A stretch of DNA of 64,000 nucleotides, taken from NCBI GenBank assembly GCA_000004985.1, contig GG738874.1; one strand, given 5' to 3'. Numbering within the stretch: the stretch's first letter is position 1; each line of letters opens with the position of its first letter. This stretch comes from Naegleria gruberi (Eukaryota). The translations under genes were made by a program, and so were the position numbers. The notes beneath the pieces are model-generated. The model was not told where the DNA came from, did not search any database, and saw only the letters and a program-made list of their open reading frames with translations. Positions 1 through 49,250 of this stretch are shown piece after piece.

Positions 1-2298
1 ATTTCTAATGACGTCTGCAATAACAAAATCAAACTCCTTGATAAAATCTGGATTTTGGAATAGTTGAACAGTCCATTCTTCTTTTGTTTTTTGAATCCAC
101 TTGGAAAAAATCTGTTTTGAACCATTAGAAACATTCACACAAAGAGGAGCTCCTTCAGTTATATAGGTTTCGAACAATTCACAACACAGTATCTCCCTCA
201 CTCTCCCCAAATCTTCCTCCCTGACATATTCTCTCAGAATTGGTGTCTTTTCCTCGTCATTATGCTTACATTCGTATAAAGAAGAATACACCTTCTCAAC
301 ATCTCCAATAAATGCAACATTCTCAATAGAAAACTCGTGCTTTGAAAATTGTCTCAACAATTCAAATCCATTTTCATCAATATACACCTGAGTAAACTCC
401 TTCCCAAACAACTCAAAGATTGGTGAATCCATTCGTATATTACATCTCATTCGAATATTTGTTCCAGCATGAAACTCTTCCTTCTTTTGCCTTTTCAACT
501 TGAAACTCTCTCGCAAAGTCATTACTGTTACAAATCCTCCACCAACACCAAAGATTTCCAAAAGCAAAGCCACGCACTCAATTGGTAAATTAAAAAATGG
601 AGAAATGAAAAAGAAAGGTGAAGCCCTTTCGTCTATCAAATGTTCAATTCTACCAGTTTCTATTTGAGCAAAACCTCTCAGTATCATCATTATAATATAC
701 AGAAAAGCAAACACAATTTGAATAACCATCTCAAATCGAAAGTATAACGGATCATTTTTAAAAAAGTATTGAATTAGTCCATTCTTTCGAATAAGCATTT
801 TTCTATTGAAATACATGTCAATAAGGAGAGTGATTAAGGCAAACACTGTAGCGAATACTATTGAAATAACGGCTAACACCTGGGCTACTGTAATAAAAAC
901 AGATAGATCTGCAACAAGTAAAAGTGGTGATAAAACTCCCAAAGCTGCGAGAGTTGTCAACAATATTGAAATCTTGACGAAGATTCTAAGTTTTGTCGAC
1001 TTGGACCACTTCAGGGATGTTTTGGTGTGATCATTATTTGTGGAAGTAATTGTGGAAGTAATTGTGGAAGGACTCGAGGTAGGAGAAACTATTTGAGAAT
1101 TCGAAAGGTTTCCAATATTTGAAAAATCCATCCTACTAAACCTTTTCACCAAACTCTCATCCATCACTTTCATATCTCGTATCGATTTTCTCTTAATATC
1201 ACAATAGACCTGATTATACACCTTCCTATTATAGAAAAAAAAAAGTGAATTTGTAAAAAATAGAATGAAAACTATTCCACAAATTATCACTGGTAGATAC
1301 AGAATCATTAAAATGTAATCTTCCCCGTTGAAATAATAATATAAATCCTTTGCTTCATTTGCTAAAATGTGAGCTACTACTATATATGGAACGAAATGTC
1401 TGGTTGACCTAGGTTTCGTATTATGGAAATAAATAGTGAATGGAGTAAGAATGAGTAAAACTAAAAATAAGATAATTGTCGTTAATAGACCTAGAATGTA
1501 ATGTGCAACAGTTGCAACTTTTTGTAAAGTCAATCTATTGTCAATTAGTTTATCAGATAAACTAAATTCTGACGAAACTTGAACGAATTCAGGTCCTTCT
1601 TGGTAAGACGAATCTAATGGAAACTTCATTTGCTTTCTATATTTGCCAACGAATGCATTAACTCTCAATTTGGAAGAATCCAAATCAACAAATTTACAAC
1701 CTGATTCCTTTTCCAAATTAGTTACTCCAAATAAATTGTTCAAATTGATTTGGAAATATAATTCAGTTCCATACAATCTTCGTGTACAATTATCTGCCCG
1801 ATAAACAAATTCGTCTTGTTTCGTATTTGATTCATAACTTGGATTCACTATTGAACCATTCACAAAATAGGTTGAATTAACAATAAATTCTTGATCCCTT
1901 AATAGAATTGACTCGCCACTAATATTCATCCTTGCATTCATCTCGAAACTATTCAACGAATCCAAATATTGATAAGCAATCATCCATCTATTCGAAATAT
2001 ACCATGTTCCATTAAATTGAAAATCCAGAGAAACTCCAAACATTGTCTTGTGTAATATATTTGCTGTAACAGCAATCAGTACCATTTGAATGTAATGAGT
2101 CGTTTCATTTTCCTTGGAATGAGACGAAACTAATCTCCATCGCCCAAAAACATTAGGTTTCATTGGAAAGTCATGATATTCAGCTAAATTTTCGTGACCT
2201 CCCCTGACTGACTGGCATTGGAGCCACAACATCATAAGCGTTAATATTCCAATTCGTGAAAGAGTGCCAAGTTTCCAATGCTTGTTTGTTATCTCCAT
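1..2298 (-). CDS. Multi-pass transmembrane protein with C-terminal RGS (regulator of G-protein signalling) domain. N-glycosylated ectodomain, then TM bundle, then RGS. Partial: C-terminus runs off the window start.
   Basis: Hand translation of the minus strand from ATG (revcomp of 2296-2298) runs stop-free to position 1. It is not in the ORF track because it is truncated by the window edge. Signal-like N-term MEITNKHWKLGTLSRIGILTLMMLWLQ. Many NxS/T sites. Several hydrophobic 20-aa segments. C-terminal FSKHEFSIENVAFIGDVEKVYSSLYECK... matches the RGS-box EFSEENxxFW signature. Confidence 0.6.
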   Translation of the reverse strand, partial: MEITNKHWKLGTLSRIGILTLMMLWLQCQSVRGGHENLAEYHDFPMKPNVFGRWRLVSSHSKENETTHYIQMVLIAVTANILHKTMFGVSLDFQFNGTWYISNRWMIAYQYLDSLNSFEMNARMNISGESILLRDQEFIVNSTYFVNGSIVNPSYESNTKQDEFVYRADNCTRRLYGTELYFQINLNNLFGVTNLEKESGCKFVDLDSSKLRVNAFVGKYRKQMKFPLDSSYQEGPEFVQVSSEFSLSDKLIDNRLTLQKVATVAHYILGLLTTIILFLVLLILTPFTIYFHNTKPRSTRHFVPYIVVAHILANEAKDLYYYFNGEDYILMILYLPVIICGIVFILFFTNSLFFFYNRKVYNQVYCDIKRKSIRDMKVMDESLVKRFSRMDFSNIGNLSNSQIVSPTSSPSTITSTITSTNNDHTKTSLKWSKSTKLRIFVKISILLTTLAALGVLSPLLLVADLSVFITVAQVLAVISIVFATVFALITLLIDMYFNRKMLIRKNGLIQYFFKNDPLYFRFEMVIQIVFAFLYIIMMILRGFAQIETGRIEHLIDERASPFFFISPFFNLPIECVALLLEIFGVGGGFVTVMTLRESFKLKRQKKEEFHAGTNIRMRCNIRMDSPIFELFGKEFTQVYIDENGFELLRQFSKHEFSIENVAFIGDVEKVYSSLYECKHNDEEKTPILREYVREEDLGRVREILCCELFETYITEGAPLCVNVSNGSKQIFSKWIQKTKEEWTVQLFQNPDFIKEFDFVIADVIRN
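1038..1072. repeat. Short tandem repeat, 12-nt unit ttgtggaagtaa x ~2.8, inside coding sequence (encodes TSTITSTIT on minus strand)
   Basis: Direct reading of 1031-1075. Confidence 0.6.
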
Positions 2299-2591
2299 TT
2301 TTTTCTATTTCTTGTTTTTTTGAAATTGGAATAATGCAGTCACGTAACACATATGTTGTGTATTATCATTTGGTTACATCTTTGTCATTTATCTCCACTC
2401 ATGAATGGGTTTGTTTGGAGTTATGCAAGGTGTTGGTTGCATATTTGAAGAAAATCTCTGTAATAAAAATAGGAAATGAGCATTGCAGTAATTGAGAATA
2501 TCTCTTGACATAAATAAGAATTTTTAAACTTTATCTCAGAATATGGCAATAAAGTACAGAAACTCGGCTTTTTAAGGTTTATTTACAAAAT

Positions 2592-4469
2592 TTAATCGGT
2601 CACAACTGAACGAGGAGGGAGAGAAGGCCCATTAAATTCATAAAATACATCGGTCAATGTGATATTTTCAGCATTAATTTCTGCCATTCTAATGACCTTT
2701 GTATTAGTCTTGTTACAGACCATTTGGATTGGAATGTGAATCTTCATGGATGATTTCTTAGAGGCCTCAAAGTCCTTTGTACTGAATTCATATCCTGTAT
2801 CAGGAACACCTGCAACCAGAGGATACAGATATGGACAGAACATGTGTAAATCTGGCTTATCAGATGGAATGTTATGCTCAGAAGGAACATAGACTGTTGC
2901 CCTTTCATATTTGTGTTTCTTTTCCTCAATTCTCTTACTTAGCATGGTTGGCCTAGTGAGCACTGAAATTTGTTTGGAATTGTTGTGTCTTTGAGAAGTT
3001 ACACTCTTCTTCTTATTTGGTATTGGAGAAGCAGATGTGGAATTGTCATAATTTCTGATATGAGATGCTTCTGAAGCATTTTGCTTTGGATTTTGGTAGG
3101 AGAAGGAAGAGAAGTGTCTCTTAAGCTTTGAAGGATAAAAGACATCATAGCTCATCATGCCATCTGGGTTGAAATCTTCTTCGAGTGATTCACCCATTTC
3201 CATGGTATTTTCAACATAGATTGGCTCAGGGAGGTTTTGATTTACAGAGTGAGAGGAGGTAGCATGTGTTGGGAGAGACTTAGACCCCACACTTTCAACG
3301 TTGCGAGGGGTTGTACGAGAAACATAATTAGGAGCTTGTTCATAGTTTGACCCATTGATTGACAATAAACCTCTAGCCAAACGTCTAGCAGTTTTTTGTT
3401 CAGATTGTGGTGATTGTGAAGAGGAGGTAAAGGATGTCTTGGATGATGAATTATAGTTGAATGACCCAGTGAGGAAGGTGAAAATTGTAAAAACAAATAA
3501 AATTCCCAAAATTATTACTGCAGATCTCATGATAGTATTTCTCTTTCTATTATCAGGATTAGAATTATCTGTTGTAGACATGGTATAGCTAGAATAGACA
3601 ACAGCTAATTGAGATTGAAGATAGTGATTTTCATGAACTAGTTTTTCGTTTTGTTCTTTGAGTGATTTGATGGTAACTTGTGCCTCGTCGAGCTTTTTTT
3701 GAAGACCATGATTTTCATCTCTCAATGTTTCCAATTCCTTCTTTTTTCTGTCTCTGGAGACCTTGGCTGTATATCTATTTCTGAGTTTCTTCTTTTCTTC
3801 CTTTTGTTGTTCTGTCAAATCTTCTGCATTTTCCAAGGCGAGTAATCTTTTCATGTCTGCATCAATTTCCTCAGCATCTCTTTTTCTTGCATTATTAGCA
3901 TTCGATTTTTTTCTTGCCTTTTCCTCATCACTTTCAGAACCAGATGAAGTTTGCTTGGAAGTTTTACTGTCTGATGATACCTTCTTCTTCTTTCTAGCAG
4001 GTGCCTTCTTCTTGGTTGCTGTAGTGCCACTTGATTGTCCACTTGTTGATGATTGATCTGTTGTTGTTGTTTGTCCACCAGTAGGAGACAATGAATTACT
4101 ACTCACGGACCCTGTCATGAATTGTGTAGGTGAAGTATTGAATGCACCAAAGAATGCATTCGAGAACATGGATGGATGCATAGCATTCTGTAACACAGCT
4201 GGATAGTTATTGTTAAACATTACAGGAATAATAGGACCTGTTGTGGTTGGAAAGGTAACTGAAGGATTTTGATTATCTGCTGACATCGGATTATAAAAAT
4301 CAAATGTGCCCATGTCTGATGGCATGCCATAGAAAGCGTTTACATCTACCACTGTTGGCTGTTGTTGTTGTTGAATATCGGATGTTGTTTGTTGTTCATC
4401 CTCACCAAGAAGTGATGTAAAATCAAAATCTTCATCCCCTCCCGAGAGAAGTGTTTCATAATTGTCCAT
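2592..4469 (-). CDS. Membrane-tethered bZIP transcription factor (ATF6/CREB3/OASIS-like). N-terminal Q/S/T-rich activation region, basic region + leucine zipper, single TM helix, luminal S/N-rich tail.
   Basis: ORF 2592..4481. The first in-frame ATG is at 4469 (MDNYETLL); the track start at 4481 is a TTG. Basic motif KKLRNRYTAKVSRDRKKKELE fits bZIP N-x7-R. Heptad leucines LETLRDENHGLQKKLDEAQVTIKSLKEQNEKLVHENHYLQSQL. Then hydrophobic AVIILGILFVFTIFTFLTG. RRLARGLL just C-terminal of the TM resembles an S1P RxxL site. Confidence 0.7.
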   Translation of the reverse strand: MDNYETLLSGGDEDFDFTSLLGEDEQQTTSDIQQQQQPTVVDVNAFYGMPSDMGTFDFYNPMSADNQNPSVTFPTTTGPIIPVMFNNNYPAVLQNAMHPSMFSNAFFGAFNTSPTQFMTGSVSSNSLSPTGGQTTTTDQSSTSGQSSGTTATKKKAPARKKKKVSSDSKTSKQTSSGSESDEEKARKKSNANNARKRDAEEIDADMKRLLALENAEDLTEQQKEEKKKLRNRYTAKVSRDRKKKELETLRDENHGLQKKLDEAQVTIKSLKEQNEKLVHENHYLQSQLAVVYSSYTMSTTDNSNPDNRKRNTIMRSAVIILGILFVFTIFTFLTGSFNYNSSSKTSFTSSSQSPQSEQKTARRLARGLLSINGSNYEQAPNYVSRTTPRNVESVGSKSLPTHATSSHSVNQNLPEPIYVENTMEMGESLEEDFNPDGMMSYDVFYPSKLKRHFSSFSYQNPKQNASEASHIRNYDNSTSASPIPNKKKSVTSQRHNNSKQISVLTRPTMLSKRIEEKKHKYERATVYVPSEHNIPSDKPDLHMFCPYLYPLVAGVPDTGYEFSTKDFEASKKSSMKIHIPIQMVCNKTNTKVIRMAEINAENITLTDVFYEFNGPSLPPRSVVTD

Positions 4470-4990: not shown

Positions 4991-5583
4991 ATGTCTGAAA
5001 ATCCAACATCGACTAAAACCTCGCGAGAAGAACACATTTTCAAATCGGAGGATGAAATCCAAACCAATTATTGGTTCATCATTGATGGCATGGTTGTCGA
5101 TTTTTCGGATTTTCTGTGGGGACATCCAGGTAAGAGTTTCATCATTATCATTTGATCCTATTATTTTGTCATAATCATCTTGATGCTGATGATGTGATTA
5201 TTGGAATATTTTAATGGTTACATTATTTTCCTTATTTATTATAATTTGTCAAAATGATGACGATTTGATTTAATTGTGATGATGATGATAATTGTTTGGG
5301 GTGATCTTTGGAAAATATCATGAAATTCATTTGTTGCTCCTCTCCATTTCATAATTCTTAATTGGATGTTGAAAAATTGTCCTTATAACTTTCTGTTATT
5401 GAACTTTGAAATGAATTACATTGTTATTGTAACTACAATTTAATATATTTAGGAGGACCTTCTTTTCTTAAGGAATGGAATAAAAAGGATGCCACTCAGA
5501 AATTTAAGTATTTTTCACACTCTGAAAGAGCTTGGGAAATGGCACGTGAGATGTCAATTGGAAGACTTGAAAAAAAGGAATAA
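4991..5583 (+). CDS. Cytochrome b5-like heme-binding domain protein (~90 aa), two exons: 4991..5129 and 5453..5583. Intron 5130..5452 (gtaagag...tttag, 323 nt).
   Basis: Exon 1 MSENPTSTKTSREEHIFKSEDEIQTNYWFIIDGMVVDFSDFLWGHPG ends at donor cag|gtaaga. Exon 2 completes HPGG-GPSFLKEWNKKDATQKFKYFSHSERAWEMAREMSIGRLEKKE. HPGG and the downstream HS motif are the cyt b5 heme ligands. Phase 1 on both sides. Confidence 0.8.
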
Positions 5584-6068
5584 TTGGAATGCTCTTCATC
5601 ATTCGAATAAACTAGGATTAGTGACAACTATTTCAGTTTATTCCTTTTGACACTAAGGTGATGGCTATCGTTTTATTTGAAAAAGGCAATCATGAGAGGG
5701 ATGCAGACAGGATGCTTCATTCCATTACAAACAGAGAGAATCGTCCAGTGTGCTGTATCAGAAATGATTTAAGGTCGTTGCTGTTGTTGAGCTGTTAGAA
5801 GTCACCAATTTGGGTGATTGTAGCTATTGAAAATGATAAGTTATTGTTCAGTTAAGCGAATACCCTAATGCACTATCCATAGACGAAAGTGTTGCCTCCA
5901 TTCTAGTGCAATATTTTGAAAAGATATCAAAGTTTGAAAGACAAGTGACCACTCACTTTAATGAATCTTTAAAGTGATGTTTCACCATGTTGTGGATACC
6001 CTACCGAAATACAAGATAGAAACCATGTGTCAGCATCAACACTTTAAAAACCTTAAAAAAACAAAAAG

Positions 6069-7124
6069 ATGAATCCTGCTTTCGTTTCCTTTCGAACACA
6101 ACCAAAATTTGGTCAGACATTAATTCCCATTGAGATTCGTTGTGGATTCTCCCAGCTAGTCACGATTTTGAATTATAATCCACATGAGCCACAAACTGTT
6201 TCGACATGTGTTGCATGTGTTTCGAATAGTACTCAAGAAGTAACAAACTCTTACAAGCAACATTCGCATGCGAATTACCTCAATACCACATGTTACAATT
6301 CCATTCCACAATTTGCTGTCCAACATGGGAAGGAACAATGTCTTTCGAAACGAAACGAAACTAATCTTTATCCACCTTCTCTTCACTATGAATGTGATAA
6401 ACTCTATCAACGTTACCTTGAAACAACCCAATGTAAATCCAAACCGCCACCAATTGACAATTTCATTGAGGATTCTTCAAAAAACGAGTCCACCAAATCA
6501 GTTGACAACCCTTTCAGTTTAGAGTTGGATTGTGAAGAGCTGTTCGCTTTTTGTAATGCCAATGGGCACGTTTCTAATTGTGATGTGGGCATGTCTCAAA
6601 ATGAAACTGATGGGGAGCCATCGTTTCGACCATTTTCAGATACAGATTCTAATAACATGTTTTCATTTTCACCTCATACAATTGTACAACTAACAACAGA
6701 AACTAATGATTCAGATGCAATTCCATCAGAAATAACAACTAGTGTTGGAACAATCCTAACAAAACATTCTTCCAACCGTGTTTCGAATAAGAAAAAGAAT
6801 AAGAGAAAACGACCATTGAGTGCTCAAAGTCTAAAATTGAACAAGAAGGTGAAACCTAGCTCTACATTGAACTCGAGTCAAATTACTTGGCATCACGTGA
6901 GTATTGACTCCAAGATGAATCAACAAGAGAATACTTTCGTATACGAGAATTCGTTTAACATGTTCGAAACTTTCTCACCAGCAAATAATCCTTCACCAAT
7001 TACTACACCATCCAACTCAGCTAATACATCACAAGAGTTTTCTTCAATAATCATTGAAACACCAGAAAGTATTTCAAAGAAAATGAAAAGAGGAAGACCA
7101 AGGAAAGATTTTCAAATTGAATAG
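6069..7124 (+). CDS. Hypothetical N/S/T-rich nuclear protein with C-terminal AT-hook (KRGRPRK) and basic KKKNKRKRP patch
   Basis: ORF 6069..7124 with ATG start. GRP AT-hook core at C-terminus. No other recognisable domain. Confidence 0.5.
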   Translation: MNPAFVSFRTQPKFGQTLIPIEIRCGFSQLVTILNYNPHEPQTVSTCVACVSNSTQEVTNSYKQHSHANYLNTTCYNSIPQFAVQHGKEQCLSKRNETNLYPPSLHYECDKLYQRYLETTQCKSKPPPIDNFIEDSSKNESTKSVDNPFSLELDCEELFAFCNANGHVSNCDVGMSQNETDGEPSFRPFSDTDSNNMFSFSPHTIVQLTTETNDSDAIPSEITTSVGTILTKHSSNRVSNKKKNKRKRPLSAQSLKLNKKVKPSSTLNSSQITWHHVSIDSKMNQQENTFVYENSFNMFETFSPANNPSPITTPSNSANTSQEFSSIIIETPESISKKMKRGRPRKDFQIE

Positions 7125-14721: not shown

Positions 14722-15828
14722 TCAATAGCATGTCTTTCTGTTGATAATTCCACTTCCATATTCAGCATACTCTTCACTTCTAATCCAGGTGGATTCAAAA
14801 GTTGAAAGGGATCCTAAGATATTAGCACCAATCCAAGCTGAATATTTTCTTTCTGGAGGTGCAACAACTTTAACCTTATTATCAAAAGCTAATTGATTCA
14901 ATTCCTTCAAAATTCTCTCTGAAAATCCATCAAACATTGTACTTCCTCCACTCAATATTATATTCTCAAAAAACTTGTTTTTCATTTTGGCATCAGTATT
15001 CGAATTAATCGAGTCAATTACCATTTTGTGAACGCCATCCAAATCCATTCCAATCATTGATGGTTGAAACATTATTTCTGGGCACTTGATGCATTCACTT
15101 CTAATGCACAGATTATTTCCATCAGGTAGCTCATAATTTTTCCCAGAACATTCCTCATTCAATTCTCTTTCAAAATCCAATGCAACACGACATGTTTTTT
15201 CCTTAATATCTGTGACTAAACTTCGATCTCTGAAAGTATTACCACTATCTTTTAACAGTTTATCCATGTGGTCTGTTAGCTCATTGCCCGCTAAATCCAT
15301 TCTTCTTACTCCATTTCGAATAATACATCCCTCATAAATAGGTACTGAACTAGATGTTCCCTCTCCACAATCCAAAACAACTCCACTCGATCTTCCAGAC
15401 GAAATCAATACCAGCAATGCATTCGGACAACTATTCATAAGTGGAACTTTAAATTTTTCAAATAACATCTCAGCCAACTTTCTCCTATTTTGTTTCGGAT
15501 TAAAACAACCTTCTCCCAAAATTATTCCCTGATTCTCAGGCTCAACCCTAAGCTCATTAAAAAACACATGTTCAAATAAAATTTCCATATCATCCCAATT
15601 TGTAATCACATCACGATCCATTGGTTTGGAAAGTTTGAGAATGGCCTTCTTAATGACGGCTTCATCACCCACAAAAACATTCTTCATGCCAGGAATGATC
15701 ATTCCCTTTATTTTTGGTCTGCCAATATAGGGAGGAAAGACAGCCCGTGGAGCATCCCTGCAAACAAATCCTGCACGAATGTTGCCGAAACCAATGTCCA
15801 TACAAATGGCTCTGTCCAATTCTGTCAT
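14722..15828 (-). CDS. Divergent actin-family protein (actin-related protein, Arp)
   Basis: ORF 14722..15828 with ATG. DIGFGNIRAGFVCRDAPRAVFPPYIGRP matches the actin N-terminal phosphate-1 loop. C-terminal KYSAWIGANILGSLSTFESTWIRSEEYAEYGSGIINRKTCY matches actin [29 protein letters not shown]...HRKCF. Confidence 0.85.
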   Translation of the reverse strand: MTELDRAICMDIGFGNIRAGFVCRDAPRAVFPPYIGRPKIKGMIIPGMKNVFVGDEAVIKKAILKLSKPMDRDVITNWDDMEILFEHVFFNELRVEPENQGIILGEGCFNPKQNRRKLAEMLFEKFKVPLMNSCPNALLVLISSGRSSGVVLDCGEGTSSSVPIYEGCIIRNGVRRMDLAGNELTDHMDKLLKDSGNTFRDRSLVTDIKEKTCRVALDFERELNEECSGKNYELPDGNNLCIRSECIKCPEIMFQPSMIGMDLDGVHKMVIDSINSNTDAKMKNKFFENIILSGGSTMFDGFSERILKELNQLAFDNKVKVVAPPERKYSAWIGANILGSLSTFESTWIRSEEYAEYGSGIINRKTCY

Positions 15829-20356: not shown

Positions 20357-22481
20357 TTATTCATAGATAAAGAGACCCTTATCTAAACCACATGAAGCAA
20401 TTTGAGAACCATCAATATTCCAAGTAACACCTGTAATAGAACTGGAATGGCCATTCACAACTAGAACAGCTGATCCCATAGCCTTTGTTGTTTGAGGAGT
20501 CAAAGACCAAATGAATAATTTACCATTGGTGCCTCCAGCGGCACAATATTCACCACAAGGAGAGAAGCATGCCTTATTGTAAGCAATGGTATTCTTATAG
20601 TCAGTATGTTTCAAGGTATCGAGAACCTTTTGAGTCATTCTCAAATCATAAATGTTGAGCAAGTTGTCCTTACCATTACTCAACAATTTAGTGCCGTCCT
20701 TTGAGAAACTGACACTGGTAACTTGTTGGCCATCGTGAGCTCTCTCAATTTCAGAAATGAGTTTAAATGACTTCATATCCCACAATCTAACAGCTGAATC
20801 AAAGTGAGCACTAGCAATAGTGTCACCTCTGGAAACTTCTACATCATTGACACTGGACTTGCAAGTCAACAAGGTCTTTTCACAGGTACCATATTGGAGT
20901 TCCCAGAATTTGATAGTTCTGTCGTGAGCTCCAGTAACAACCTTCTTAGAGTCTGGTGAAAAGTCAGCTCCGTAAATCTTTTTAGTGTGACCAGTGAGTG
21001 TGTGTCTTACACGATCATTTCCCAAATTCCAAATTCTACAAATTGAATCAGCACAAGCACCAAGAGCCAATTGACCAACACTGCTAAATTTCACCTTGAT
21101 TACACTGTCAGTAGATCCGTGAAGGGTAGTTGTGAAATTTCCTGATTTGGAATTGAAAATTCTAATAGTCTTATCACTACAAGCAATAGCGACACTGTGA
21201 GTATCCTCTGAAAAGTCAATACTATTAATTTGAGTATCAATAATTTGTTTACAGACAACTGTCTTTGGAGGAGTGATCAATATCTTTTCAGCATTATTAG
21301 TGGTTGTTGAAGGAGTATTGATGTTCATCGAAGTTGGTAAACCTGCTTGACCTCCTTGTTGTTGAGAAGATCCAACATTTCTAATCTTATCAAAGAATGA
21401 GAAGAATCCAGAGTCTCTTCTATCCTTTGGTGGAAGGTTATCTTCTGGACCTGGTGGTGTGGAAACTGAACCAGCAGAACCAGTAGTTCCATCCACTGAA
21501 GTATCCAAATTTCCAGTCTTGTATTTTGCTTGCAATGTTTGAAGTTGTTGTTTTTGTTGCATGACAGTCTTGTACAATTCATTGACTTGATTCATAGAGT
21601 CAACTTGTTTTTGCTTTTGTTCCACAACGTGATTGACCATCTTTTTGTTTTCTTCAGTTAATTCCTCAAGTTTTTTATCCTTTTCTCTCAATTCATTGAG
21701 AATGGTATCTCTTTCATTTCTCAATACTTCAATGCCACTTTCCTTCTTTTGAAGTCTTTCTTCCAACAATCTACTATTTTCTCTAGCAGTTTCCAATTCA
21801 ATCATTAATTTTTCATATCTAAAATTTCACAAATTTGAAACGAATTATGTTGGTAAGAATTTGATAGCTCTTAGAAATGATACATACTGAATCTTTTGAT
21901 CTTGTTCTTGATTCTTCAATCTCTTGACTTCATTATTCAAATCAAGAATAGTTTGAGATGATTCAACCTTTGCTCTAAAAGCTGATGTCAACTCTTCTTG
22001 AAGGCAATACACCTTTTCTTCCAATTCCTTGACTCTTGCAGAGGATACACCACTTGATCCTGGTGATGATGGCACAGACATTGATGTTGGTGCTCCAGAC
22101 TTTAACTTGGATAATTCTTCCTTGTAAATATCATTTTCGGCTTGAATGGAAGTTAATTTCTCCTTTGTTGTTTGATGTAATTTTCTGGTTTTTCTCAATT
22201 CTGTACAAATACTTTCATCTGTGTTGGAAATGATTATTGTTATGATTTAGAAAATAATTGTTTTTGTTGATCGTGATCAGAGGAATGAAGAGATGATGAA
22301 AGATCAAAATTATTTAAAAATAGTAAAAAATTGATCGGAATACTATGAATTACTAGTTTAGTGACAAAAACTCACATTGTTGAATCAAATTACTAAATTG
22401 TTTACTCTCCTCTTGGTTCCTCTTCTCCAGAACGGCAGAGAAGTTTGTCTTCCAACATGGTGAGGTTGTGAGTGCGCTCAT
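20357..22481 (-). CDS. ATG16: ATG16 (autophagy E3-like complex subunit): N-terminal ATG5-binding region, coiled coil, 7 WD40 repeats. 3 exons: 22481..22376, 22218..21888, 21818..20357. Introns 22375..22219 (gtgagt...acacag, 157 nt) and 21887..21819 (gtatgt...ttttag, 69 nt).
   Basis: Exon 1 MSALTTSPCWKTNFSAVLEKRNQEESKQFSNLIQQ aligns to human ATG16L1 [43 protein letters not shown] matches DLNNQMQRKDREMQ. WD region RVRHTLTGHTKKIYGADFSPDSKKVVTGAHDRTIKFWEL / HFDSAVRLWDM aligns to ATG16L1 RLRHTLTGHSGKVLSAKF...SGSHDRTLKLWDL / HFDKKIRFWDI. Splice phases 1 and 2 are consistent. Confidence 0.85.
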
Positions 22482-23783: not shown

Positions 23784-25474
23784 ATGCCCTCAAATATTCT
23801 TGGTGTACCAACGAGTGGTATGCTTCCATCATCATCTTCTGCAAATAATAAACAGAAAAAGATAAAGGATTATCAAGGAAGAATTTATATATTTACACAA
23901 AAAGAATTGGGTAATGATACTGATTATTTAAAAATTAAGGAAATTGTTGAACAAAGTGGAGGTGATGTATCTGAGATTAAAGTTGAAGGAAAACCATACT
24001 TGATCGCTTTGATGAAGAAAATTGTTGGAGATTTGAAACCACCACACGTTTTTTTCAATGATGAATATATTGGAGTATGTTTTTAATTTATTTTGGAGTG
24101 AATAATTGAACAAATTAATTTCCGATCGTGTTCGTTAATATCGGCATTCCATCCCATTATTTCTTTTATTAAGGGCTTGGAAGAGATCAAAAATTTAAAG
24201 GAAAGTGGGTTATTAACAGTCAAGATTCAAACATGTAAGAATGCTCTCACTCCAGGAGAATTGTACAAAGTCTACAGAAAACAAGGTGATTTATTTGTCA
24301 TTTCACCAAATCACTTGTATTTCCCTCGTAAGTAGTTTAACAATTTAACATGCATGATAATAACATGATGAATATAGCTCCTTCAAAGAGATTGATTACT
24401 TGTTGCATTACACTCTACAATAGAACAGACAAATATACGGCCTATAAATTAAAAACAACATGCCCTAACAGATATATTGTAAAACCAAAGAAGGGTATTG
24501 CTCCACCCAATGGAACAGCTCAAGTTGAAATTACCATGCAAAAACCAGTTACAACTGATGAGAAGGGAGATAAATTTAGAGTGGAATCACTGGCACTTCA
24601 ATACTACAAACCAGAAATGGAGGATCAAGTTGATGAATTGTTCAAAGAAGCTGAAGAACGAAGAGTTGTCAAACAAAAGATTTCTTGTCGTTTTGAGGCT
24701 CCTCCAACAGGATTCACAGTAAGCAATAATGAAGATGGATCAATTACTGTAAAGAAATCTCAATCATCTGTTGATATTTTTGATGGTTTTCCAATTGATC
24801 AATTTTCTCAAGCTGTCAAGAAACAAATTGAGATTAATAATTCCAAACACAAGCCTCAATTTAATATTCCTGTATCAACAGAAGCCAAGCTAGAGACAGT
24901 TGTTTCTGCTACCTCACCACTCTCTGAACTCATTTTTGAATCTCCAAGAAACTTTGAACTTCCAAAACAATATTACGAAACCCCTACTGAAACCGAAAAG
25001 AGCCCTGTAACAACACAATCACCAACTATTGTCAAATCTACTTCCAATGATTTGGCCTCTCCTATCGCTGATGAAGAATCAAACAAATTGGAAAAGTTAA
25101 AGAGTAGTTCTGAAAAAATTGTACAACAAAAGACACAACAAAAAGCTGAAACATCAAAAGGACTGGAGGAATTGTACAAGGAAGAATATAATCGATTGGA
25201 AAAGGAATATGATCAAATTATTAACAAGTTAAAAACCTCAGAGCAAAGAGTGAAGGAATGCGAGCTCACCATTGATAGTCTCAATGAAAGATTGAGAGAA
25301 AGTGAACAAAATTTAGAAAAGGAAAGAGCTAAGAAGAGAGTTGATGTCTCTGTATTGGAATCATCCCTTGGAAATCGTTCAACCTTAGAATTTGATGAAA
25401 AGAATGGCTACTCACTCATAGGAATAATTGCAGTAGCTCTAATTTGCCTCTTGATTGGTAAATTAATGCCTTAA
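23784..25474 (+). CDS. VAP (VAMP-associated protein; MSP domain + coiled coil + C-terminal TM anchor) with an N-terminal Cys-less glutaredoxin/SH3BGR-like thioredoxin-fold domain. 3 exons: 23784..24074, 24174..24327, 24378..25474. Introns 24075..24173 (gtatgt...attaag, 99 nt) and 24328..24377 (gtaagt...atatag, 50 nt).
   Basis: Exon 1-2: RIYIFTQKELGND...KPPHVFFNDEYIG|GLEEIKNLKESGLL is a Grx/SH3BGR-like C-terminal PxxF(I)NGxxIGG block with no CxxC. Exon 2 end DLFVISPNHLYFP and exon 3 PPSKRLITCCITLYNRTDKYTAYKLKTTCPNRYIVKPKKGIAPPNGTAQVEI align to VAP-A [53 protein letters not shown]. C-terminal coiled coil and IGIIAVALICLLIGKL TM. Alternative: the Grx-like ORF ends at TAG 24333 if intron 2 is retained, with VAP using an unseen upstream exon. 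Confidence 0.65.
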
Positions 25475-27144: not shown

Positions 27145-30100
27145 TTATTTCTTTTCAGATTCATCTATTACAGAATTTTCATAATAATTCTTGAGTTCTT
27201 GCTGTTCTTGTTCAACAAGCTTGTTAGAACTCGAAGGAGTATGATAGGAAACTTCTAGATCACATCCAAGTGGATTTTCATGATGTTTCTCCTTCAATAA
27301 ATAGGTTTGAGAAAGTCCTTTTCCTTTCACTTCAACCATTCTCTCTTCAAACTCAAATAAATCATAAACTCTTCCATAGGTAGATCTGGAAATTTGAATT
27401 CTTCCTGGAAGTGAAGTTGATTCCATTCGAGAGGCAGTATTGATTGTATCTCCCCACAAATCGTAGGCAAACTTTTTAAATCCAATCACTCCACCAACTG
27501 CATCTCCTGTGTGAAGACCAATTCTCAAATTAATGGCTGTGTTATTACTCTGATTGATATTTTTCAAGAAGGACATGATTTCAATGGCAAATCTCAACAT
27601 TCTTTCTGGATGATCCGATGACTTGCTTGAATGTAAACCACTCACACAGAAATAAGCATCTCCAATGGTCTTAATCTTGTCAACCAAGTGAACTTCTGTC
27701 AACTTGTCAAATCCTTGAACAATTAAATTCAATATTTGTACCAACTCACTTGGTTGTAATTTTGAACTCCAAGCTGTAAAGCCAACCATGTCACTGAAAA
27801 ATACAGTGATATCATTCACTTTTTCATATAAATTCTCTTCTCCATTTTTCAATCTTGAAGCCATTGACATTGGCAATATATTCAATAATAAATCTTCACT
27901 CTTCTTCTTTTCCTCTGCAATCAAAATACTCTGTTTCTTTTCAGGTGTAATATCTCGAACAAAAACAATCAAAATTTGCTTCTTTTCATGAATTGAAATT
28001 GAAACTGAAACTTTTGAGGAGAATGAAGTCTTGTTCTTTCTCAGAGCCATTGCTTCAAATGCATCATGACTTTCACCTGTTGAAATTAATTTGGTTATTC
28101 TTTGAGAATACTCATCTGTGAATAGAGATTGAATGGAGAGTCCCAAAACTTGTGACCTCGAATGTCCAAACATTTCCTCAGCTGAATTGTTGAAAATGGT
28201 GATATTTCCATCCTTATCACAAATAATGGCAGAATCAACACCTCCATTCAAAATAGTCTTGACCATTTCAATCTTGTCTTCCTTTTCATCGGAACTCATC
28301 TCAAATTTGGACATTAACTTTGTTATCTTTGAGGATGAAGGAATAGAATTACTCATGACATAATCTTTCAAAATCAAATTATTGTCAATCAATTCCAAAT
28401 TTACATAATTCAACATCATTCTCAAACATGCTCTTTCCTTCCAATATCTTTTCAATGAAGAGTAACAAATCAATGCGTATAAAAGTGTGGCAACAAAGCA
28501 CAACACAATCATGCTAGCTGTTAGGCCAATACTTGAAATCTTCTCGTGTTCTACAAGGGTGGATATAAGAAGTTGTAAATTGGTAGTTATTGTTTGTGTT
28601 ATGTAAAAAATGTCTGTAAAATAAGCAGTCACCATTTGTGTCATACTCTTTTGTTGCCCAAAGAATACTTCGTTGTAATCTAAAGACTTGGTAATATAAT
28701 CCGTCAGTGCAATGGTCAAACTATGACAAGGATCTTCCATAGGAATGGTATCGTTACAAAAGTCTCCTAATATATAGTCTACATCTTGATATTTTCCAAC
28801 AACGGCTGATTGATAGGATGTTGATTCATCACCCACAATCACATAATTCCAGTAAGTTCTCAAGTCAAGTAAATCTTGCTTATTTTCCTCATTGAATATC
28901 AAAGGCAAAGTAGTGAGGTACTTTACTCTTTGAAAGTACCAAAGTAACCTAAAGTTGGTTCTACTTGTTCTTAGGGAAACTGCATTGATTGAACCAACAA
29001 CATTCATAGATTGGGAACTATTTTTGGTATTTGATTGTAGCTCTACAACAACCAAGACGGAACATAGGCAAACAATTATGACGAGTACAAAACTTCCCAT
29101 CATTACTAAATTTCTCATTTTAAAAAAGGAATTAGACGAGCTTATTGAGTCATCAATTTTCTTGTCAAAATTGTGATAAACCTTTCCGACTTCGTCTTTT
29201 GCAATCCTTCTGAATACCTCCCTTAGCTCAGTGACTATTCGTCTGGCATGCACAAAGATAATGGAAAAGTAAATCATTACAATTAGTAGATACGTGGTTA
29301 GAACAGAAATCACAGTAATCCATAATTGCTCAAAATTAGCTTCCAAAACATCAATACTTTCTTCAACAAATTTTGAACACAGACCATTAAAAGCTAGAGA
29401 CATGGATATTCTATTGTAAAATAGAAATAGGTATGGATAATTATCATCTAAATGGGATGTTAACACCTCAATATTATTAAATTGCTTCAACAACGTTTTA
29501 CCGTGTGTTAATATTGAAGACAAGTAGAATTGAATAGATGTATTGGTAGACTTATATCCTGGAATATCGCTTGTTCCGTCCAGTGATTCATTAGCAATAG
29601 GAAGTTTAAGATCATACTGATTTTTCAAATATTCCTTAGCAACTTCAGGCATTAACAAATTATTATCGCCTGCATAGATGACAGTACCAACTGTATCTAA
29701 CAATGTCTTTGTGTATATAATTGTAGAGTTGAGTAATTTTTCAGTATTGTTTCCTCTTGAATAGAACTCGGTTTGAAGAGCTCCTATTTGTGCCAATAAC
29801 TTGTAAGGCACAGATGTCATTAAGCATACTTTCTCTTGCATGGACATTCTTTGGTTAATACTCTGAGAAAATGAAAAGGCTATTGGAGCAACAATACATA
29901 TAGTAGACAATGAGACAACACAAAAAATGAAAAACAATACAGAATACACAACCGTTGACATTGGTGTGTTAATGGCTGTGCGCAAGATATGATCTTTTCT
30001 ATCTTCATTATCCTCGGCAGTTACACTTACAGAATCCCAATTTTCCAAGTTGGCTCTTTGTGAGTCTATACTGAATCTAGAGGTAGTTCCTTTGTGAAAT

Positions 30101-38219: not shown

Positions 38220-39780
38220 ATGCTTACATTACCAGTAGAGCCGGGCTATAGCATGGGAAGTTTTAGGATTGGAATGCCCATTTCCGAAGCTATTCAGCAT
38301 TTGAAACAGTATGTGGATCAAATGGTCAAGTTTTTCCAAAACAAACAAGCTGCCAGTGAATTGGTAATGATTCAAAGTAATTCTTCATCATCAAATAATG
38401 CTGAGGTAAATGTTCCTTCATATTCTATAGTGAGTTTGGATGATAAACCAAATGCTGTGGAAATTTTGTACAATGAAAAGGATCCTCTGAATAATGATAC
38501 TATTGTGAAAATTGTTGAGGAAGATATTGTATTATATTTCGAGTCAAAAACACAACGATTGAAGTTAATTCAAATCAATAACGTTAAAAAAGTTAAATTA
38601 TCATATGGTGCTAGCATATTTAGTGGTCCGAATGTTGATGCTAGTTTTGTAAAGTAAGTACTATTCACAATTTATTAACAAAATTCTCATCAATATCTTT
38701 CTATTTAAATAATATTTCTTTAATAATAACAATAGTATTTATAATGTATTCGGTCCAACTTATCCAGGCGAGTTTGACACAAAATCAAACACGTACAAGT
38801 TGACTTATCCTGGTCTGACTTTTGTATTCCCAATCCCTCCAATGTTTTCTCATTTGTACTCAGATGGTAAAGAGTTACCAATTGAATTCCCAAATAATAC
38901 CACTCCAATAGCCACCACCATTTATCTTTTCCATGGTCATGATCTTGCAAAACCCAAACTACCTCCTGTAAAATCAGAATGTACTACCAACATTACAAAT
39001 GGATCAAATTCTAAAAATAAGGAAGAAAATAGGAAGAGAATTGATTCAGCTACTCCTGACAGTTATTACGAGCCAATTATTGTCAATCTTGGAAGGGGCA
39101 TTGAATTATCTTACTCAAAGAAGAAAATCAAATTTGGTTATTCAACTCAAGATGTTTTAATGATTCTTGGAGCTCCAGATAAGATTTATTACAAGAGGAA
39201 TGACAAGTTGAGAATTCACGCTATAGGAGCAGGCCAATCTGTAAATGGACGTTTACTCTCTGAAAAGGAAGAAGTTGCCCAACCAACAGAGCACACTAAT
39301 GGATACGAAAGAGTTCTTCAACGTGACAACTCCCTTAATACCATATTGGCACCATCAACTAATAATAGATCCAAGCAAACTGTTGGAAATGACTATTTTT
39401 ATAATTATTTTAGTATGGGCTTTGACATTATGTTTGGAGGAAATACACACACAGTACAAAAGATAATGCTTCACACTAACTTCCCTGGCAGTGTTGATTT
39501 TAATACGTACTCTAAATGTAACTTCTCCATTCCAGTGTCACAATTCGAATTTCAAGAGAAGAGGGAAAATCAATTTATTGGTCCAGATGAAAAGTTTTCC
39601 AATGTTCAAAAGATACTTGATGGCACTCCTTGTAGCAAACCAATTGTTCATGACCACACCAAAGCTAATAATCCATTTGGAGGAACCAAATTCTTTGCTT
39701 TTAGAAATTGTATATTTGAAGTGATTAGTAGAAATGATCATATTAATTCATTGACCTTATTTAAGGATGAAAACAGCTAG
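38220..39780 (+). CDS. UPF0183 family protein (PHAF1/C16orf70 homolog), 2 exons: 38220..38653 and 38736..39780. Intron 38654..38735 (gtaagt...acaatag, 82 nt).
   Basis: MLTLPVEPGYSMGSFRIGMPISEAIQHLKQ aligns to human PHAF1 MLDLEVVPERSLG...FTLGMPLAQAVAIL. KIVEEDIVLYFESKTQRLKLIQINNVKKVKLSY to [81 protein letters not shown] to [49 protein letters not shown]. Splice phase 2. Confidence 0.8.
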
Positions 39781-48887: not shown

Positions 48888-49247
48888 TTGATGATCAAAG
48901 CCTTAATGGAAAGAAGACAAACGTTTAAAAAAATGCCTTACAGAGAAGATAGTGATGACGATGATGAAGATATTGAGGAATATGAAGATGAGGATGATAG
49001 AGAGGAAGAAGAATATCATCGTCGTAAGGAAAGAGAAGAAGAGGAGGAAGAAGAACAAGATCCAATAGTTGAGGAGGACGAAGAAGAAGAGGAAGAGGAA
49101 GAGCCCGAGGAGGAAGAAGAAGAGCACCAAGAAGAGGAGGAACATGAAGAAGAAGAGCATGATGAGGAAGAGGAACATGAAGAGCATGATGAGGATGAAC
49201 ATTACGATGATGAGGAAGAGGAAGAACATAGAAGAAGAGGAGGATGA
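48888..49247 (+). CDS. Acidic poly-E/D ORF (119 aa) immediately upstream of and overlapping the Sec8 reading frame. Uncertain: either an N-terminal extension of Sec8 separated by a 1-nt frameshift, or a spurious or separate ORF in a GAA/GAG repeat.
   Basis: ATG at 48888 followed by DSDDDDEDIEEYEDEDD...(E)n. The +1 frame over the same repeat reads K/R-rich and runs into the Sec8 ORF. Confidence 0.3.
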   Translation: MMIKALMERRQTFKKMPYREDSDDDDEDIEEYEDEDDREEEEYHRRKEREEEEEEEQDPIVEEDEEEEEEEEPEEEEEEHQEEEEHEEEEHDEEEEHEEHDEDEHYDDEEEEEHRRRGG

Positions 49248-49250
49248 AAC
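48950..49250. repeat. Coding GAA/GAG/GAT trinucleotide-rich microsatellite-like tract (poly-Glu/Asp in frame 0, poly-Lys/Arg in frame +1)
   Basis: Direct reading of 48950-49250. Confidence 0.7.

What the first reader, a model, noticed from the sequence alone, without database searches (positions are those of the whole stretch)
2592..4469. Membrane-anchored bZIP factor with a putative S1P-like RxxL site (regulated intramembrane proteolysis candidate)
Basic region-leucine zipper followed about 25 aa later by a single TM helix, with RRLARGLL in the luminal part. This is the ATF6/CREB3/OASIS architecture of ER-stress and secretory-load sensors, rarely characterised outside animals and plants.
Basis: partly seen in the sequence, partly recalled or inferred. 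Interest (0 to 1): 0.5.

Follow-up and report, generated by a model that had tools for sequence, protein, structure and literature searches.

The report
Membrane-tethered bZIP factor of Naegleria
This Naegleria gruberi gene encodes a DNA-binding bZIP protein anchored in the ER membrane, with a conserved protease-type cut site on the lumenal side, so this distant amoeba lineage probably has an ATF6-like stress-signalling switch so far characterised in animals and plants.

Summary
The minus-strand ORF 2592-4469 is NAEGRDRAFT_80111 (625 aa) of Naegleria gruberi.

**Architecture**
- An acidic N-terminus and a K/R cluster.
- A bZIP with the signature NRYTAKVSR and six heptads.
- One strong transmembrane helix (aa 317-337), positive-inside, which makes it type II.
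- ARRLARGLL at aa 361-369 on the lumenal side.
- A conserved 200-aa lumenal domain with no Pfam match.

**Family**
A profile search found the same architecture in N. fowleri, N. lovaniensis, Willaertia, Acrasis and unnamed eukaryotic contigs. The lumenal linker is otherwise unalignable. An R-x-[L/I]-x motif persists in all of them. An N-glycosylation sequon usually follows 6-9 residues later.

**Published context**
Comparative genomics (Herman 2021, Table S14) reports S1P and S2P orthologues in Naegleria and "no clear orthologue" of ATF6. It lists this very gene as a weak "Xbp1" (BLAST 0.001/0.007).

**Tests against the alternatives**
- I found no IRE1-type twin hairpins in seven orthologous mRNAs.
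- The lumenal domain shows no detectable homology to the ATF6 lumenal domain.

**Verdict**
The best reading is an ATF6-like, proteolytically released membrane bZIP with a lineage-specific sensor domain. The architecture is shown; cleavage and a role in ER stress are inferred. I rate it a new variant of a known kind, of moderate interest.

The parts
2592..4469 (-). Complete single-exon CDS (625 codons plus the stop at 2592-2594) of NAEGRDRAFT_80111 / XP_002676136.1 / UniProt D2VIQ7
   Evidence: ORF list and sequence. 100% identity and coverage to the annotated N. gruberi protein.
4380..4469 (-). Acidic/hydrophobic N-terminus (aa 1-30, ...GGDEDFDFTSLLGEDEQQ). Inferred transactivation segment on the cytosolic side.
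   Evidence: Read directly from the sequence. D/E-rich N-termini with F/L recur in the homologues. The activation function is inferred.
3978..4013 (-). Basic cluster KKKAPARKKKKV (aa 153-164), a candidate nuclear localisation signal
   Evidence: A K/R run of 4 or more lies upstream of the bZIP in 9 of 10 full-length homologues. NLS function is inferred.
3810..3887 (-). Conserved extension N-terminal to the basic region (aa 195-220: RKRDAEEIDADMKRL..L....LTEQ)
   Evidence: Invariant or near-invariant E, I, D, L, L-T columns in alignments A3 and A5.
3609..3809 (-). bZIP domain (aa 221-287): basic region KKKLRNRYTAKVSRDRKKK, then a six-heptad leucine zipper
   Evidence: Pfam bZIP_1 at E=3.4e-5. 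The family profile hits solved bZIPs. Heptad and signature analysis. Zipper indels between species are 7 and 14 residues, which preserves the register.
3459..3521 (-). Single transmembrane helix (aa 317-337, AVIILGILFVFTIFTFLTGSF). Type II signal-anchor with a conserved mid-helix Gly.
   Evidence: Kyte-Doolittle 19-residue mean of 2.5-2.8 in the four Naegleria proteins, with no second segment above 1.3; 17-residue maxima of 2.2-3.2 across the family. Positive-inside flanks in 10 of 10. The Gly column is visible.
3363..3389 (-). Lumenal juxtamembrane motif ARRLARGLL (aa 361-369). RGLL (aa 366-369) fits the S1P consensus R-x-hydrophobic-x and is the candidate site-1 cleavage site.
   Evidence: Invariant in four Naegleria species. 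R-x-[L/I]-x is present in every family representative.
3348..3356 (-). N-glycosylation sequon NGS (aa 372-374), six residues after the Arg of RGLL
   Evidence: A sequon lies 6-9 residues downstream of the motif Arg in 9 of 12 representatives. This is consistent with lumenal exposure. Its use is inferred.
2619..3233 (-). Conserved C-terminal lumenal domain (aa 413-617). Motifs: FNxDGM..V.YP..K.HF, NSKQ, KHKYE, LFCPYIYPL, KIHIPIQ, IRMAEI.A.NI.L. No known family.
   Evidence: No Pfam hit. It defines a family of 13 relatives in 1.84 billion representatives. Alignments A3, A4 and A6. No homology to the ATF6 lumenal profile. AF2 models are poor, with pLDDT about 49.

Best explanation
The gene encodes a type II ER-membrane-tethered bZIP transcription factor.

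Shown: the N-terminal half carries an acidic region, a K/R cluster and the bZIP. It should face the cytosol. A single helix anchors the protein. The C-terminal half carries a conserved R-x-L-L motif, a sequon and a conserved 200-aa domain. It should face the ER lumen.

Inferred mechanism:
1. The lumenal domain holds the protein in the ER until a lumenal signal, such as unfolded-protein or secretory load, allows export to the Golgi.
2. The Naegleria S1P orthologue cuts after RGLL (aa 366-369).
3. The shortened stub is cut within the membrane by the S2P orthologue. The conserved mid-helix Gly may help this step.
4. The released acidic-NLS-bZIP fragment dimerises, enters the nucleus and activates target genes.

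Functionally this is the ATF6 / plant bZIP17-28 logic, carried out with a lineage-specific lumenal sensor domain.
For: - Architecture and topology.
- The same architecture recurs in Naegleria spp., Willaertia magna, Acrasis kona and unnamed eukaryotic contigs. These were found with the lumenal domain alone as the query.
- R-x-[L/I]-x is the only conserved element of an otherwise unalignable juxtamembrane linker, and a sequon follows it.
- S1P is reported in N. fowleri and N. gruberi: g1459 against human site-1 peptidase at 4e-102/0, N. gruberi 38345. S2P is reported too: g6020 at 1e-20/4e-17. ATF6 has 'no clear orthologues' there, so the proteases lack their classic UPR substrate (PMC8296547 Table S14 and protease table).
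- A K/R cluster on a membrane protein argues for release.
- No IRE1-type hairpins were found.
Against: - No experiment shows cleavage, ER localisation or stress induction.
- The lumenal domain has no detectable similarity to that of ATF6 (hhalign probability 0.07%).
- The TM lacks the Asn/Pro pair used by ATF6 and SREBP.
- In Acrasis the motif lies 111 aa from the membrane rather than 18-42.
- In one subclade the motif reads G-h-R-L-L-x, so the register of the Arg relative to LL shifts by one.
- I did not examine the S1P and S2P orthologues myself.
- R-x-L-L could instead be a binding or sorting motif.
Confidence: 0.55

Rival explanations
1. It is the heterolobosean XBP1/HAC1/bZIP60 equivalent. 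On this reading, the membrane-anchored form is the unspliced product. IRE1 removes a short unconventional intron upstream of the TM codons. The frameshift then yields a soluble active bZIP, as with plant bZIP60 and metazoan XBP1u.
For: - Herman et al. list this gene (N. gruberi 80111, N. fowleri g10580) as 'Xbp1' and find IRE1 in Naegleria.
- The Acrasis homologue is annotated 'X-box-binding protein'.
- In a small panel, the family's bZIP profile scores human XBP1 highest at 37 bits, level with plant bZIP28 at 36.6.
- bZIP60u and XBP1u also carry a hydrophobic segment after the bZIP.
Against: - The published reciprocal BLAST values are only 0.001 and 0.007. Another Naegleria bZIP scores better with the XBP1 query, at 6e-7.
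- No hairpin with a C-N-G-N-N-G-N loop, nor a relaxed N-N-G-N-N-G-N loop, occurs between the bZIP and the TM in any of seven orthologous mRNAs. No twin-hairpin pair was found in six of the seven. The only pairs lie in Acrasis, at codons 393-432, downstream of the TM.
- That region folds no better than shuffles, z=0.21.
- A long, strongly conserved lumenal domain and a conserved RxLL have no role in the XBP1/bZIP60 mechanism.
- The DNA-contact signature is NxxTAxxSR, not the NxxAAxxAR of XBP1 (the XBP1 signature is from memory).
Confidence: 0.12
2. It is a membrane-tethered bZIP released by a different route. Candidates are signal-peptide-peptidase or rhomboid cleavage, or retrotranslocation with proteasomal or DDI-type processing as for Nrf1, Spt23 and plant NAC factors. 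On this reading, the conserved R-x-L-L is a chaperone-binding, sorting or folding motif, not an S1P site.
For: - The architecture and the K/R cluster demand release but do not specify the protease.
- Type II orientation also suits SPP/SPPL proteases.
- There is no Asn/Pro in the TM.
- The distance from the membrane to the motif varies from 18 to 111 aa.
- From my own knowledge, activation of plant bZIP28 has been reported not to depend strictly on S1P.
Against: - The motif fits the S1P consensus in every lineage, with Arg at P4 and Leu/Ile at P2.
- A strong S1P orthologue and an S2P orthologue exist in Naegleria without a known ATF6 substrate.
Confidence: 0.2
3. It is a permanently membrane-bound bZIP, for example at the inner nuclear membrane, that regulates or tethers chromatin without being cleaved.
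For: - ER and nuclear-envelope membranes are continuous.
- A recent review discusses chromatin tethering by type II membrane bZIPs (PMC12652670, listed; abstract only, not read in full).
Against: - The cytosolic/nucleoplasmic part is about 316 aa, which is large for passage to the inner nuclear membrane.
- This does not explain the conserved lumenal protease-type motif or the conserved lumenal domain.
Confidence: 0.08

Closest known systems
Metazoan ATF6 alpha/beta
   Same: - Type II ER membrane bZIP with an N-terminal acidic activation region.
- The TM lies shortly after the zipper.
- A lumenal R-x-L-L (RHLL in ATF6, seen in the retrieved sequences) lies about 20-30 aa past the membrane.
- The lumenal domain is large and glycosylatable.
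- S1P and S2P are present in the genome.
   Different: - There is no detectable homology of the lumenal domain.
- The TM has no Asn/Pro pair.
- The bZIP scores lower against ATF6 (24.6 bits) than against XBP1 or bZIP28.
- Published searches found no clear ATF6 orthologue in Naegleria.
Plant bZIP17 / bZIP28 / bZIP49
   Same: - The same architecture outside animals.
- A bZIP of the N-x-x-S-A-x-x-S-R type.
- An RxxL in the lumen.
- bZIP28 is the joint best scorer in the bZIP panel at 36.6 bits (sequence from memory).
   Different: - The lumenal domains are not alignable by eye. This was not formally tested, because no database copy of the plant proteins was retrieved.
- The RRIL of plant bZIP28 is far from the membrane.
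Metazoan CREB3/OASIS family
   Same: - Type II membrane bZIP with a TM about 20-30 aa after the zipper and a juxtamembrane RxxL.
- A conserved extension N-terminal to the basic region.
   Different: - The OASIS signature is NKxSAxxSR, with a specific extended basic domain (PMC4736632). Here it is NRxTAxxSR.
- The N-terminal extension has different spacing.
- CREB3 lumenal tails are short and poorly conserved, whereas this one is a conserved domain.
XBP1u / plant bZIP60u / yeast HAC1 (IRE1-spliced bZIPs)
   Same: - Weak best-BLAST relationship of the bZIP.
- The L-[ST]-x-E-E-K...L-[KR]-N-R spacing resembles XBP1 (from memory).
- A hydrophobic segment lies downstream of the bZIP.
   Different: - No IRE1 twin hairpins.
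- A long conserved lumenal domain and a conserved RxLL are present.

Membership tests
bZIP superfamily (Pfam PF00170 bZIP_1) | Basic-region signature N-x2-[A/S/T]-A-x2-[S/C]-R | tested here: met
   NRYTAKVSR is invariant in Naegleria. N-R-x-[T/S]-A-x-x-S-R holds in all 10 full-length homologues.
bZIP superfamily (Pfam PF00170 bZIP_1) | Heptad Leu repeat in fixed register after the basic region | tested here: met
   The d positions read LLALLL (N. gruberi), LLLHLL (N. fowleri) and ALLLLLL (P0012). Asn occupies the first a position in 9 of 10. Indels are 7 or 14 residues.
bZIP superfamily (Pfam PF00170 bZIP_1) | Score at or above Pfam's gathering threshold | tested here: not met
   24.3 bits against 27.6, E=3.4e-5. 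The homologues score 18-26 bits. The family profile nevertheless matches solved bZIPs in register, with c-Jun at 2.4e-6.
S1P/S2P-activated membrane bZIPs (ATF6, CREB3/OASIS, plant bZIP17/28), defined by mechanism | Single type II TM helix C-terminal to the bZIP | tested here: met
   One segment with a KD mean of 2.5-3.2. Positive-inside flanks in 10 of 10.
S1P/S2P-activated membrane bZIPs (ATF6, CREB3/OASIS, plant bZIP17/28), defined by mechanism | Lumenal S1P consensus R-x-hydrophobic-x near the membrane | tested here: met
   RGLL at aa 366-369. R-x-[L/I]-x is conserved in all family representatives.
S1P/S2P-activated membrane bZIPs (ATF6, CREB3/OASIS, plant bZIP17/28), defined by mechanism | S1P and S2P encoded in the same genome | tested here: met
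   From the literature only: PMC8296547 Table S14 and its protease table list S1P (N. gruberi 38345) and S2P (N. gruberi scaffold_9:254207-255622). I could not search the genome myself.
S1P/S2P-activated membrane bZIPs (ATF6, CREB3/OASIS, plant bZIP17/28), defined by mechanism | Helix-destabilising residues in the TM, needed for S2P (Asn/Pro in ATF6 and SREBP) | tested here: inconclusive
   There is no Asn/Pro. There is a conserved mid-helix Gly, and a Gly-Ser/Gly pair at the lumenal end.
S1P/S2P-activated membrane bZIPs (ATF6, CREB3/OASIS, plant bZIP17/28), defined by mechanism | Stress-induced ER-to-Golgi transport and two-step cleavage | not testable with these tools
   This needs experiments.
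ATF6 family, by homology | ATF6-type lumenal domain | tested here: not met
   I ran hhalign of the heterolobosean lumenal profile against a profile of 15 vertebrate and coral ATF6 lumenal domains. The result was probability 0.07% and E=0.7. In the default run only the 7 RxLL columns align; a permissive run gave a different 14-column match at the same score.
CREB3/OASIS family, by homology | [quoted passage not shown] | tested here: not met
   The signature here is NRxTAxxSR.
XBP1/HAC1/bZIP60 (IRE1-spliced) | Twin stem-loops with 7-nt C-N-G-N-N-G-N loops flanking a short intron whose length is not a multiple of three | tested here: not met
   There is none between the bZIP and the TM in seven orthologous mRNAs, and none is positionally conserved. 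The region's folding z-score is 0.21. Rfam finds nothing.
XBP1/HAC1/bZIP60 (IRE1-spliced) | Orthology of the bZIP to XBP1 | tested here: inconclusive
   Published reciprocal BLAST values are 0.001 and 0.007. The panel gives XBP1 37.2 bits, bZIP28 36.6 and ATF6 24.6 (most sequences from memory). bZIP domains are too short to resolve this.

The most novel reading that the evidence does not exclude
This heterolobosean family may descend from a membrane-tethered UPR bZIP that was already present in the last eukaryotic common ancestor. If so, proteolytic (S1P/S2P) activation of an ER-anchored bZIP predates the split of Discoba from animals and plants. ATF6/OASIS, plant bZIP17/28/60 and perhaps XBP1/HAC1 would then be derivatives of one ancestral anchored factor, and its lumenal sensor domain was replaced repeatedly. 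The conserved 200-aa lumenal domain would be a new type of ER-lumenal sensing module.
Probability: 0.2. Interest if true: 0.75.

Novelty: new variant of a known kind. Interest (0 to 1): 0.55.

Why it matters
The ATF6 branch of the unfolded-protein response is usually described as an animal and plant feature. One survey found Atf6 only in the metazoan and plant species it sampled and none in the protozoan parasites examined (PMC3084755). A recent paper states that amoebae lack ATF6, S1P and S2P (PMC8507491).

Naegleria is reported to encode S1P and S2P but no recognisable ATF6. This gene supplies a plausible substrate. Together these would place a complete ATF6-like switch in Discoba.

That gives a directly testable model in a free-living relative of the brain-eating amoeba N. 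fowleri, which has a 50%-identical orthologue. It would correct a provisional 'Xbp1' label. It also defines a new conserved lumenal domain whose sensing function is unknown.

Tried and rejected
1. Homology of the lumenal domain to ATF6. I recalled the human ATF6 lumenal sequence and verified it at 100% identity against the database. I built a 15-sequence ATF6 profile and ran hhalign in default and permissive modes. There was no signal beyond RxLL. My by-eye impression of similar C-terminal strands was therefore dropped.
3. IRE1 splicing. A strict and a relaxed hairpin scan in seven orthologues, RNA folding and Rfam gave nothing. Alternative-frame open segments exist after the TM codons but also elsewhere in the gene, and they are not conserved in Acrasis or the JGI homologue. 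They are uninformative.
4. The word-indexed search with the bZIP profile returned no hit at all, not even family members, so the bZIP subfamily could not be assigned from the database. The small panel uses sequences from memory for everything except ATF6 and is only a lead.
5. Sequon counts for the cytosolic against the lumenal half are not discriminating across the family.
6. Literature searches for the locus tags and for Naegleria with ATF6, S2P or bZIP found no study of this gene. The only mention is in the supplementary tables of Herman 2021.
7. PDB sequence search with the whole protein gave only low-complexity noise.
Full report
**What is there.** The window is AT-rich eukaryotic DNA, 31-37% G+C. 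The finding's coordinates cover a 625-codon ORF on the minus strand, ATG at 4469 and stop at 2592-2594. Its translation is identical over its full length to the annotated Naegleria gruberi protein XP_002676136.1 / EFC43392.1 / UniProt D2VIQ7, locus NAEGRDRAFT_80111, named only 'predicted protein'. The gene has no intron. Its neighbours are ordinary eukaryotic genes:
- a divergently transcribed cytochrome b5 gene;
- actin;
- a WD40 protein;
- an MSP-domain protein;
- a PAS-adenylate/guanylate cyclase;
- PHAF1;
- a CCT chaperonin subunit;
- a Sec8-like protein.

**The bZIP.** Pfam bZIP_1 matches aa 221-281 at E=3.4e-5 and 24.3 bits, which is below the curated 27.6. Three further results make the assignment secure.
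- Every full-length relative scanned matches bZIP_1 over its bZIP segment at E from 1e-5 to 1e-3.
- A profile built from the family's bZIP segment matches solved bZIP structures in register. These are c-Jun at 2.4e-6, JunD, ATF2, GCN4, FosB, C/EBP-beta, ATF4 and CREB.
- The sequence shows the DNA-contact signature N-R-Y-T-A-K-V-S-R, followed in the canonical register by d-position residues L-L-A-L-L-L and an Asn at the first a position.

Length differences between species inside the zipper are exactly 7 residues (N. fowleri and N. lovaniensis) and 14 residues (a metagenomic relative). This is expected if the heptad register is under selection.

**The membrane anchor and topology.** There is one hydrophobic segment, aa 317-337. 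Its Kyte-Doolittle 19-residue mean is 2.5; the next best window scores 0.7. It starts about 30 residues after the last zipper leucine. The N-terminus is acidic and has no signal peptide. The N-side flank (NRKRNTIMRS) carries more positive charge than the C-side flank in all ten full-length family members. This predicts a type II signal-anchor, with the bZIP half in the cytosol and the C-terminal 288 residues in the ER lumen. A K/R cluster (KKKAPARKKKKV, aa 153-164) that looks like a nuclear localisation signal lies upstream of the bZIP in nine of ten relatives.

**The lumenal motif.** RRLARGLL is at aa 362-369. Among four Naegleria species, A-R-R-[L/V]-A-R-G-L-L is invariant, while the rest of the 80-90-residue linker between the membrane and the C-terminal domain is not conserved. 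RGLL fits the S1P consensus of Arg at P4 and an aliphatic residue at P2, like ATF6's RHLL. RHLL is visible in the ATF6 sequences I retrieved.

**A wider family.** The word-indexed search found only three relatives, all Naegleria. I then searched 1.84 billion representatives with a profile of the lumenal part alone. This gave 13 genuine hits and one spurious one. The genuine hits include Willaertia magna KAL9653856.1, Acrasis kona KAL0491263.1 (annotated 'X-box-binding protein') and unnamed sequences from metagenomes and Logan assemblies.

Every full-length member has the same order of parts: acidic N-terminus, K/R cluster, conserved pre-basic extension, bZIP, one TM, an R-x-[L/I]-x motif, and a C-terminal domain. 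The domain has the motifs FNxDGM..V.YP..K.HF, NSKQ, KHKYE, LFCPYIYPL, KIHIPIQ and IRMAEI.A.NI.L.

The motif reads RGLL, RTLL, RVLQ, RAIL, RNIL, RKLL, RLLT, RLLQ or RLLA. It usually follows a Gly and is aligned. In composition-preserving shuffles of each linker, such a match appears in 7-24% of trials. It is present in 11 of 12 representatives under a strict pattern and in all 12 as R-x-L-x. An N-x-S/T sequon follows 6-9 residues after the Arg in 9 of 12.

Orthology within Naegleria is backed by synteny with cytochrome b5, Alg14 and PHO4. The cytochrome b5 neighbour is kept in Willaertia as well.

**Comparison with known systems.** The architecture is that of ATF6, CREB3/OASIS and plant bZIP17/28. 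Membership by descent is another matter.
- ATF6: I verified a recalled human ATF6 lumenal sequence against the database at 100% identity, with named ATF6 hits. I built a 15-sequence vertebrate-plus-coral profile and compared it with the heterolobosean lumenal profile. Probability was 0.07%, and in the default run only the seven RxLL columns aligned. The lumenal domain is therefore not detectably ATF6-like. It also has no Pfam match.
- OASIS: the OASIS-specific basic-region signature NKxSAxxSR (PMC4736632) is not met.
- Panel: the family bZIP profile scores XBP1 at 37.2 bits, plant bZIP28 at 36.6, bZIP60 at 30.6, HAC1 at 26.4, CREB3L1 at 25.8 and ATF6 at 24.6. I treat this only as a lead that the domain belongs to the old 'UPR' cluster of bZIPs described in PMC4736632.

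**The key outside evidence.** Herman et al. [quoted passage not shown] Their rows read as follows:

| Gene | N. fowleri | N. gruberi | BLAST forward / reverse |
|---|---|---|---|
| Ire1 | present | 29467 | 4e-61 / 1e-59 |
| Xbp1 | g10580 | 80111 | 0.001 / 0.007 |
[quoted passage not shown] | S1P | g1459 | 38345 | 0 / 0 |
| S2P | g6020 | scaffold_9:254207-255622 | 1e-20 / 1e-17 |

Their protease table gives the same S1P and S2P calls against human site-1 peptidase and S2P peptidase. Their transcription-factor table shows that the bZIP of g10580 is the N. fowleri orthologue studied here.

So the gene in this window has been noticed before, but only as a weak XBP1 candidate. Neither that entry nor anything else my searches found mentions the membrane anchor, the lumenal domain or the RxLL. 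Naegleria has both proteases of the ATF6 pathway but no recognised substrate.

**Testing the XBP1-type rival.** IRE1 is present and the bZIP is XBP1-like, so I tested whether the mRNA could be an IRE1 substrate. In bZIP60 and XBP1, splicing removes the hydrophobic segment by frameshift.
- I scanned seven orthologous mRNAs for hairpins with 7-nt C-N-G-N-N-G-N loops: four Naegleria, Willaertia, Acrasis and a JGI contig. I then relaxed the loop to N-N-G-N-N-G-N.
- None lies between the bZIP and the TM, and none is positionally conserved. Only Acrasis gives candidate pairs, at codons 393-432, downstream of its TM.
- The zipper-to-TM region of the N. gruberi mRNA folds no better than shuffles, z=0.21.
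- Rfam finds nothing.
- Open alternative-frame segments after the TM codons are not specific to that place and are not conserved across the family.
- A long lumenal domain conserved at the protein level has no role in the XBP1/bZIP60 mechanism.

I rate this rival at about 0.12.

**Mechanism proposed.** The parts and the topology prediction are shown. The following steps are inferred.
1. The protein sits in the ER as a type II membrane protein.
2. Its lumenal domain keeps it there until a lumenal signal permits export.
3. S1P cuts after R-G-L-L.
4. S2P cuts the remaining stub in the membrane.
5. The acidic-NLS-bZIP fragment enters the nucleus.

Weak points:
- There are no experimental data.
- The TM has no Asn/Pro, only a conserved Gly.
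- The motif lies 111 residues from the membrane in Acrasis.
- The Arg shifts register by one in one subclade.
- I rely on a published table for S1P and S2P.

Other release routes, or a non-proteolytic role for the motif, remain possible at about 0.2. So does a permanently tethered factor, at about 0.08.

**Novelty and score.** The kind of system is known. This would be a new variant: a heterolobosean family with an ATF6-like logic, a lumenal domain unrelated to any described one, and a gene so far labelled only 'predicted protein' or weak 'Xbp1'.

It bears on whether the proteolytic branch of the UPR is ancestral to eukaryotes. It also contradicts a general statement that amoebae lack ATF6, S1P and S2P (PMC8507491). 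One survey of twelve species found Atf6 only in metazoa and a plant (PMC3084755).

Interest is 0.55. Confidence is about 0.95 in the architecture and about 0.55 in the S1P/S2P mechanism.

Noticed in passing
window 4991-5125 (+) and beyond an intron starting near 5131; L001 1951-2362, L002 2159-2470, L004 1455-1730: A small cytochrome b5 gene lies head-to-head with the bZIP gene, about 520 bp between the two start codons. The neighbour is kept in N. fowleri, N. lovaniensis and Willaertia magna, but there the two genes lie on the same strand. The short shared intergenic region in Naegleria could hold a bidirectional promoter.
   Followed up: partly
window 3609-3809 (-); alignment A1 columns 334-340, A3 columns 431-444: Indels inside the leucine zipper are exactly one heptad (7 aa, N. 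fowleri and N. lovaniensis) or two heptads (14 aa, metagenomic P0005) relative to N. gruberi. The coiled-coil register is therefore preserved.
   Followed up: yes
L005 (Acrasis kona) gene 2001-3794, protein P0009: In Acrasis the R-T-L-L motif lies 111 residues after the TM helix, against 18-42 in the other full-length members. Either S2P-type cleavage tolerates a long stub there, or the gene model contains extra sequence, or the mechanism differs.
   Followed up: no
window 3242-3496 (-), +1 frame relative to the CDS: A stop-free alternative-frame stretch of 84-89 codons starts inside the TM codons. Similar +1 open stretches occur after the TM in other Naegleria and Willaertia, but also elsewhere in the gene. 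They are absent in Acrasis and in the JGI homologue, so they probably reflect codon composition.
   Followed up: yes
window 38800-39777 (+) and L004 4247-5644: A PHAF1 gene lies 34 kb from the bZIP gene in N. gruberi but immediately downstream of it in Willaertia magna. This is a trace of rearranged synteny.
   Followed up: no
window 27148-32037 (-): A 1630-aa ORF has a TPR region, a PAS domain and an adenylate/guanylate cyclase catalytic domain. It belongs to the kind of large signalling cyclase repertoire that, from my own recollection, has been described for Naegleria.
   Followed up: no
window 24350-25471 (+): A 374-aa protein has an N-terminal MSP (VAP-like) domain. Other ordinary genes in the window are actin (14725-15828, -), a WD40 protein (20360-21805, -), an Est1-like protein (41385-43865, -), a kinesin fragment (44276-45481, -), a CCT chaperonin subunit (46760-48250, -) and a Sec8-like exocyst subunit (49069-52761, +).
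   Followed up: no
literature: PMC8507491 versus PMC8296547 Additional file 16: One paper states that amoebae have no homologues of ATF6, S1P or S2P. The Naegleria comparative-genomics tables list clear S1P and S2P orthologues. The general statement does not hold for this amoeboflagellate.
   Followed up: partly
(tool behaviour): The word-indexed search with the 10-sequence bZIP profile scored 7812 candidates. It reported none at E<=0.001, not even the family's own members. A negative from that tool for short K/E-rich coiled-coil queries is uninformative.
   Followed up: no
L006 (JGI metagenome 3300062347, contig Ga0606064_0017, 142.7 kb), gene 5001-6956: A divergent full-length family member (P0012, 27% identity to N. 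gruberi over the whole protein) sits on a long unnamed eukaryotic contig beside a serpin, a glycosyltransferase-49 and a weak Zn2Cys6 protein. The organism is unidentified, so the family may reach beyond the named heterolobosean genera.
   Followed up: no
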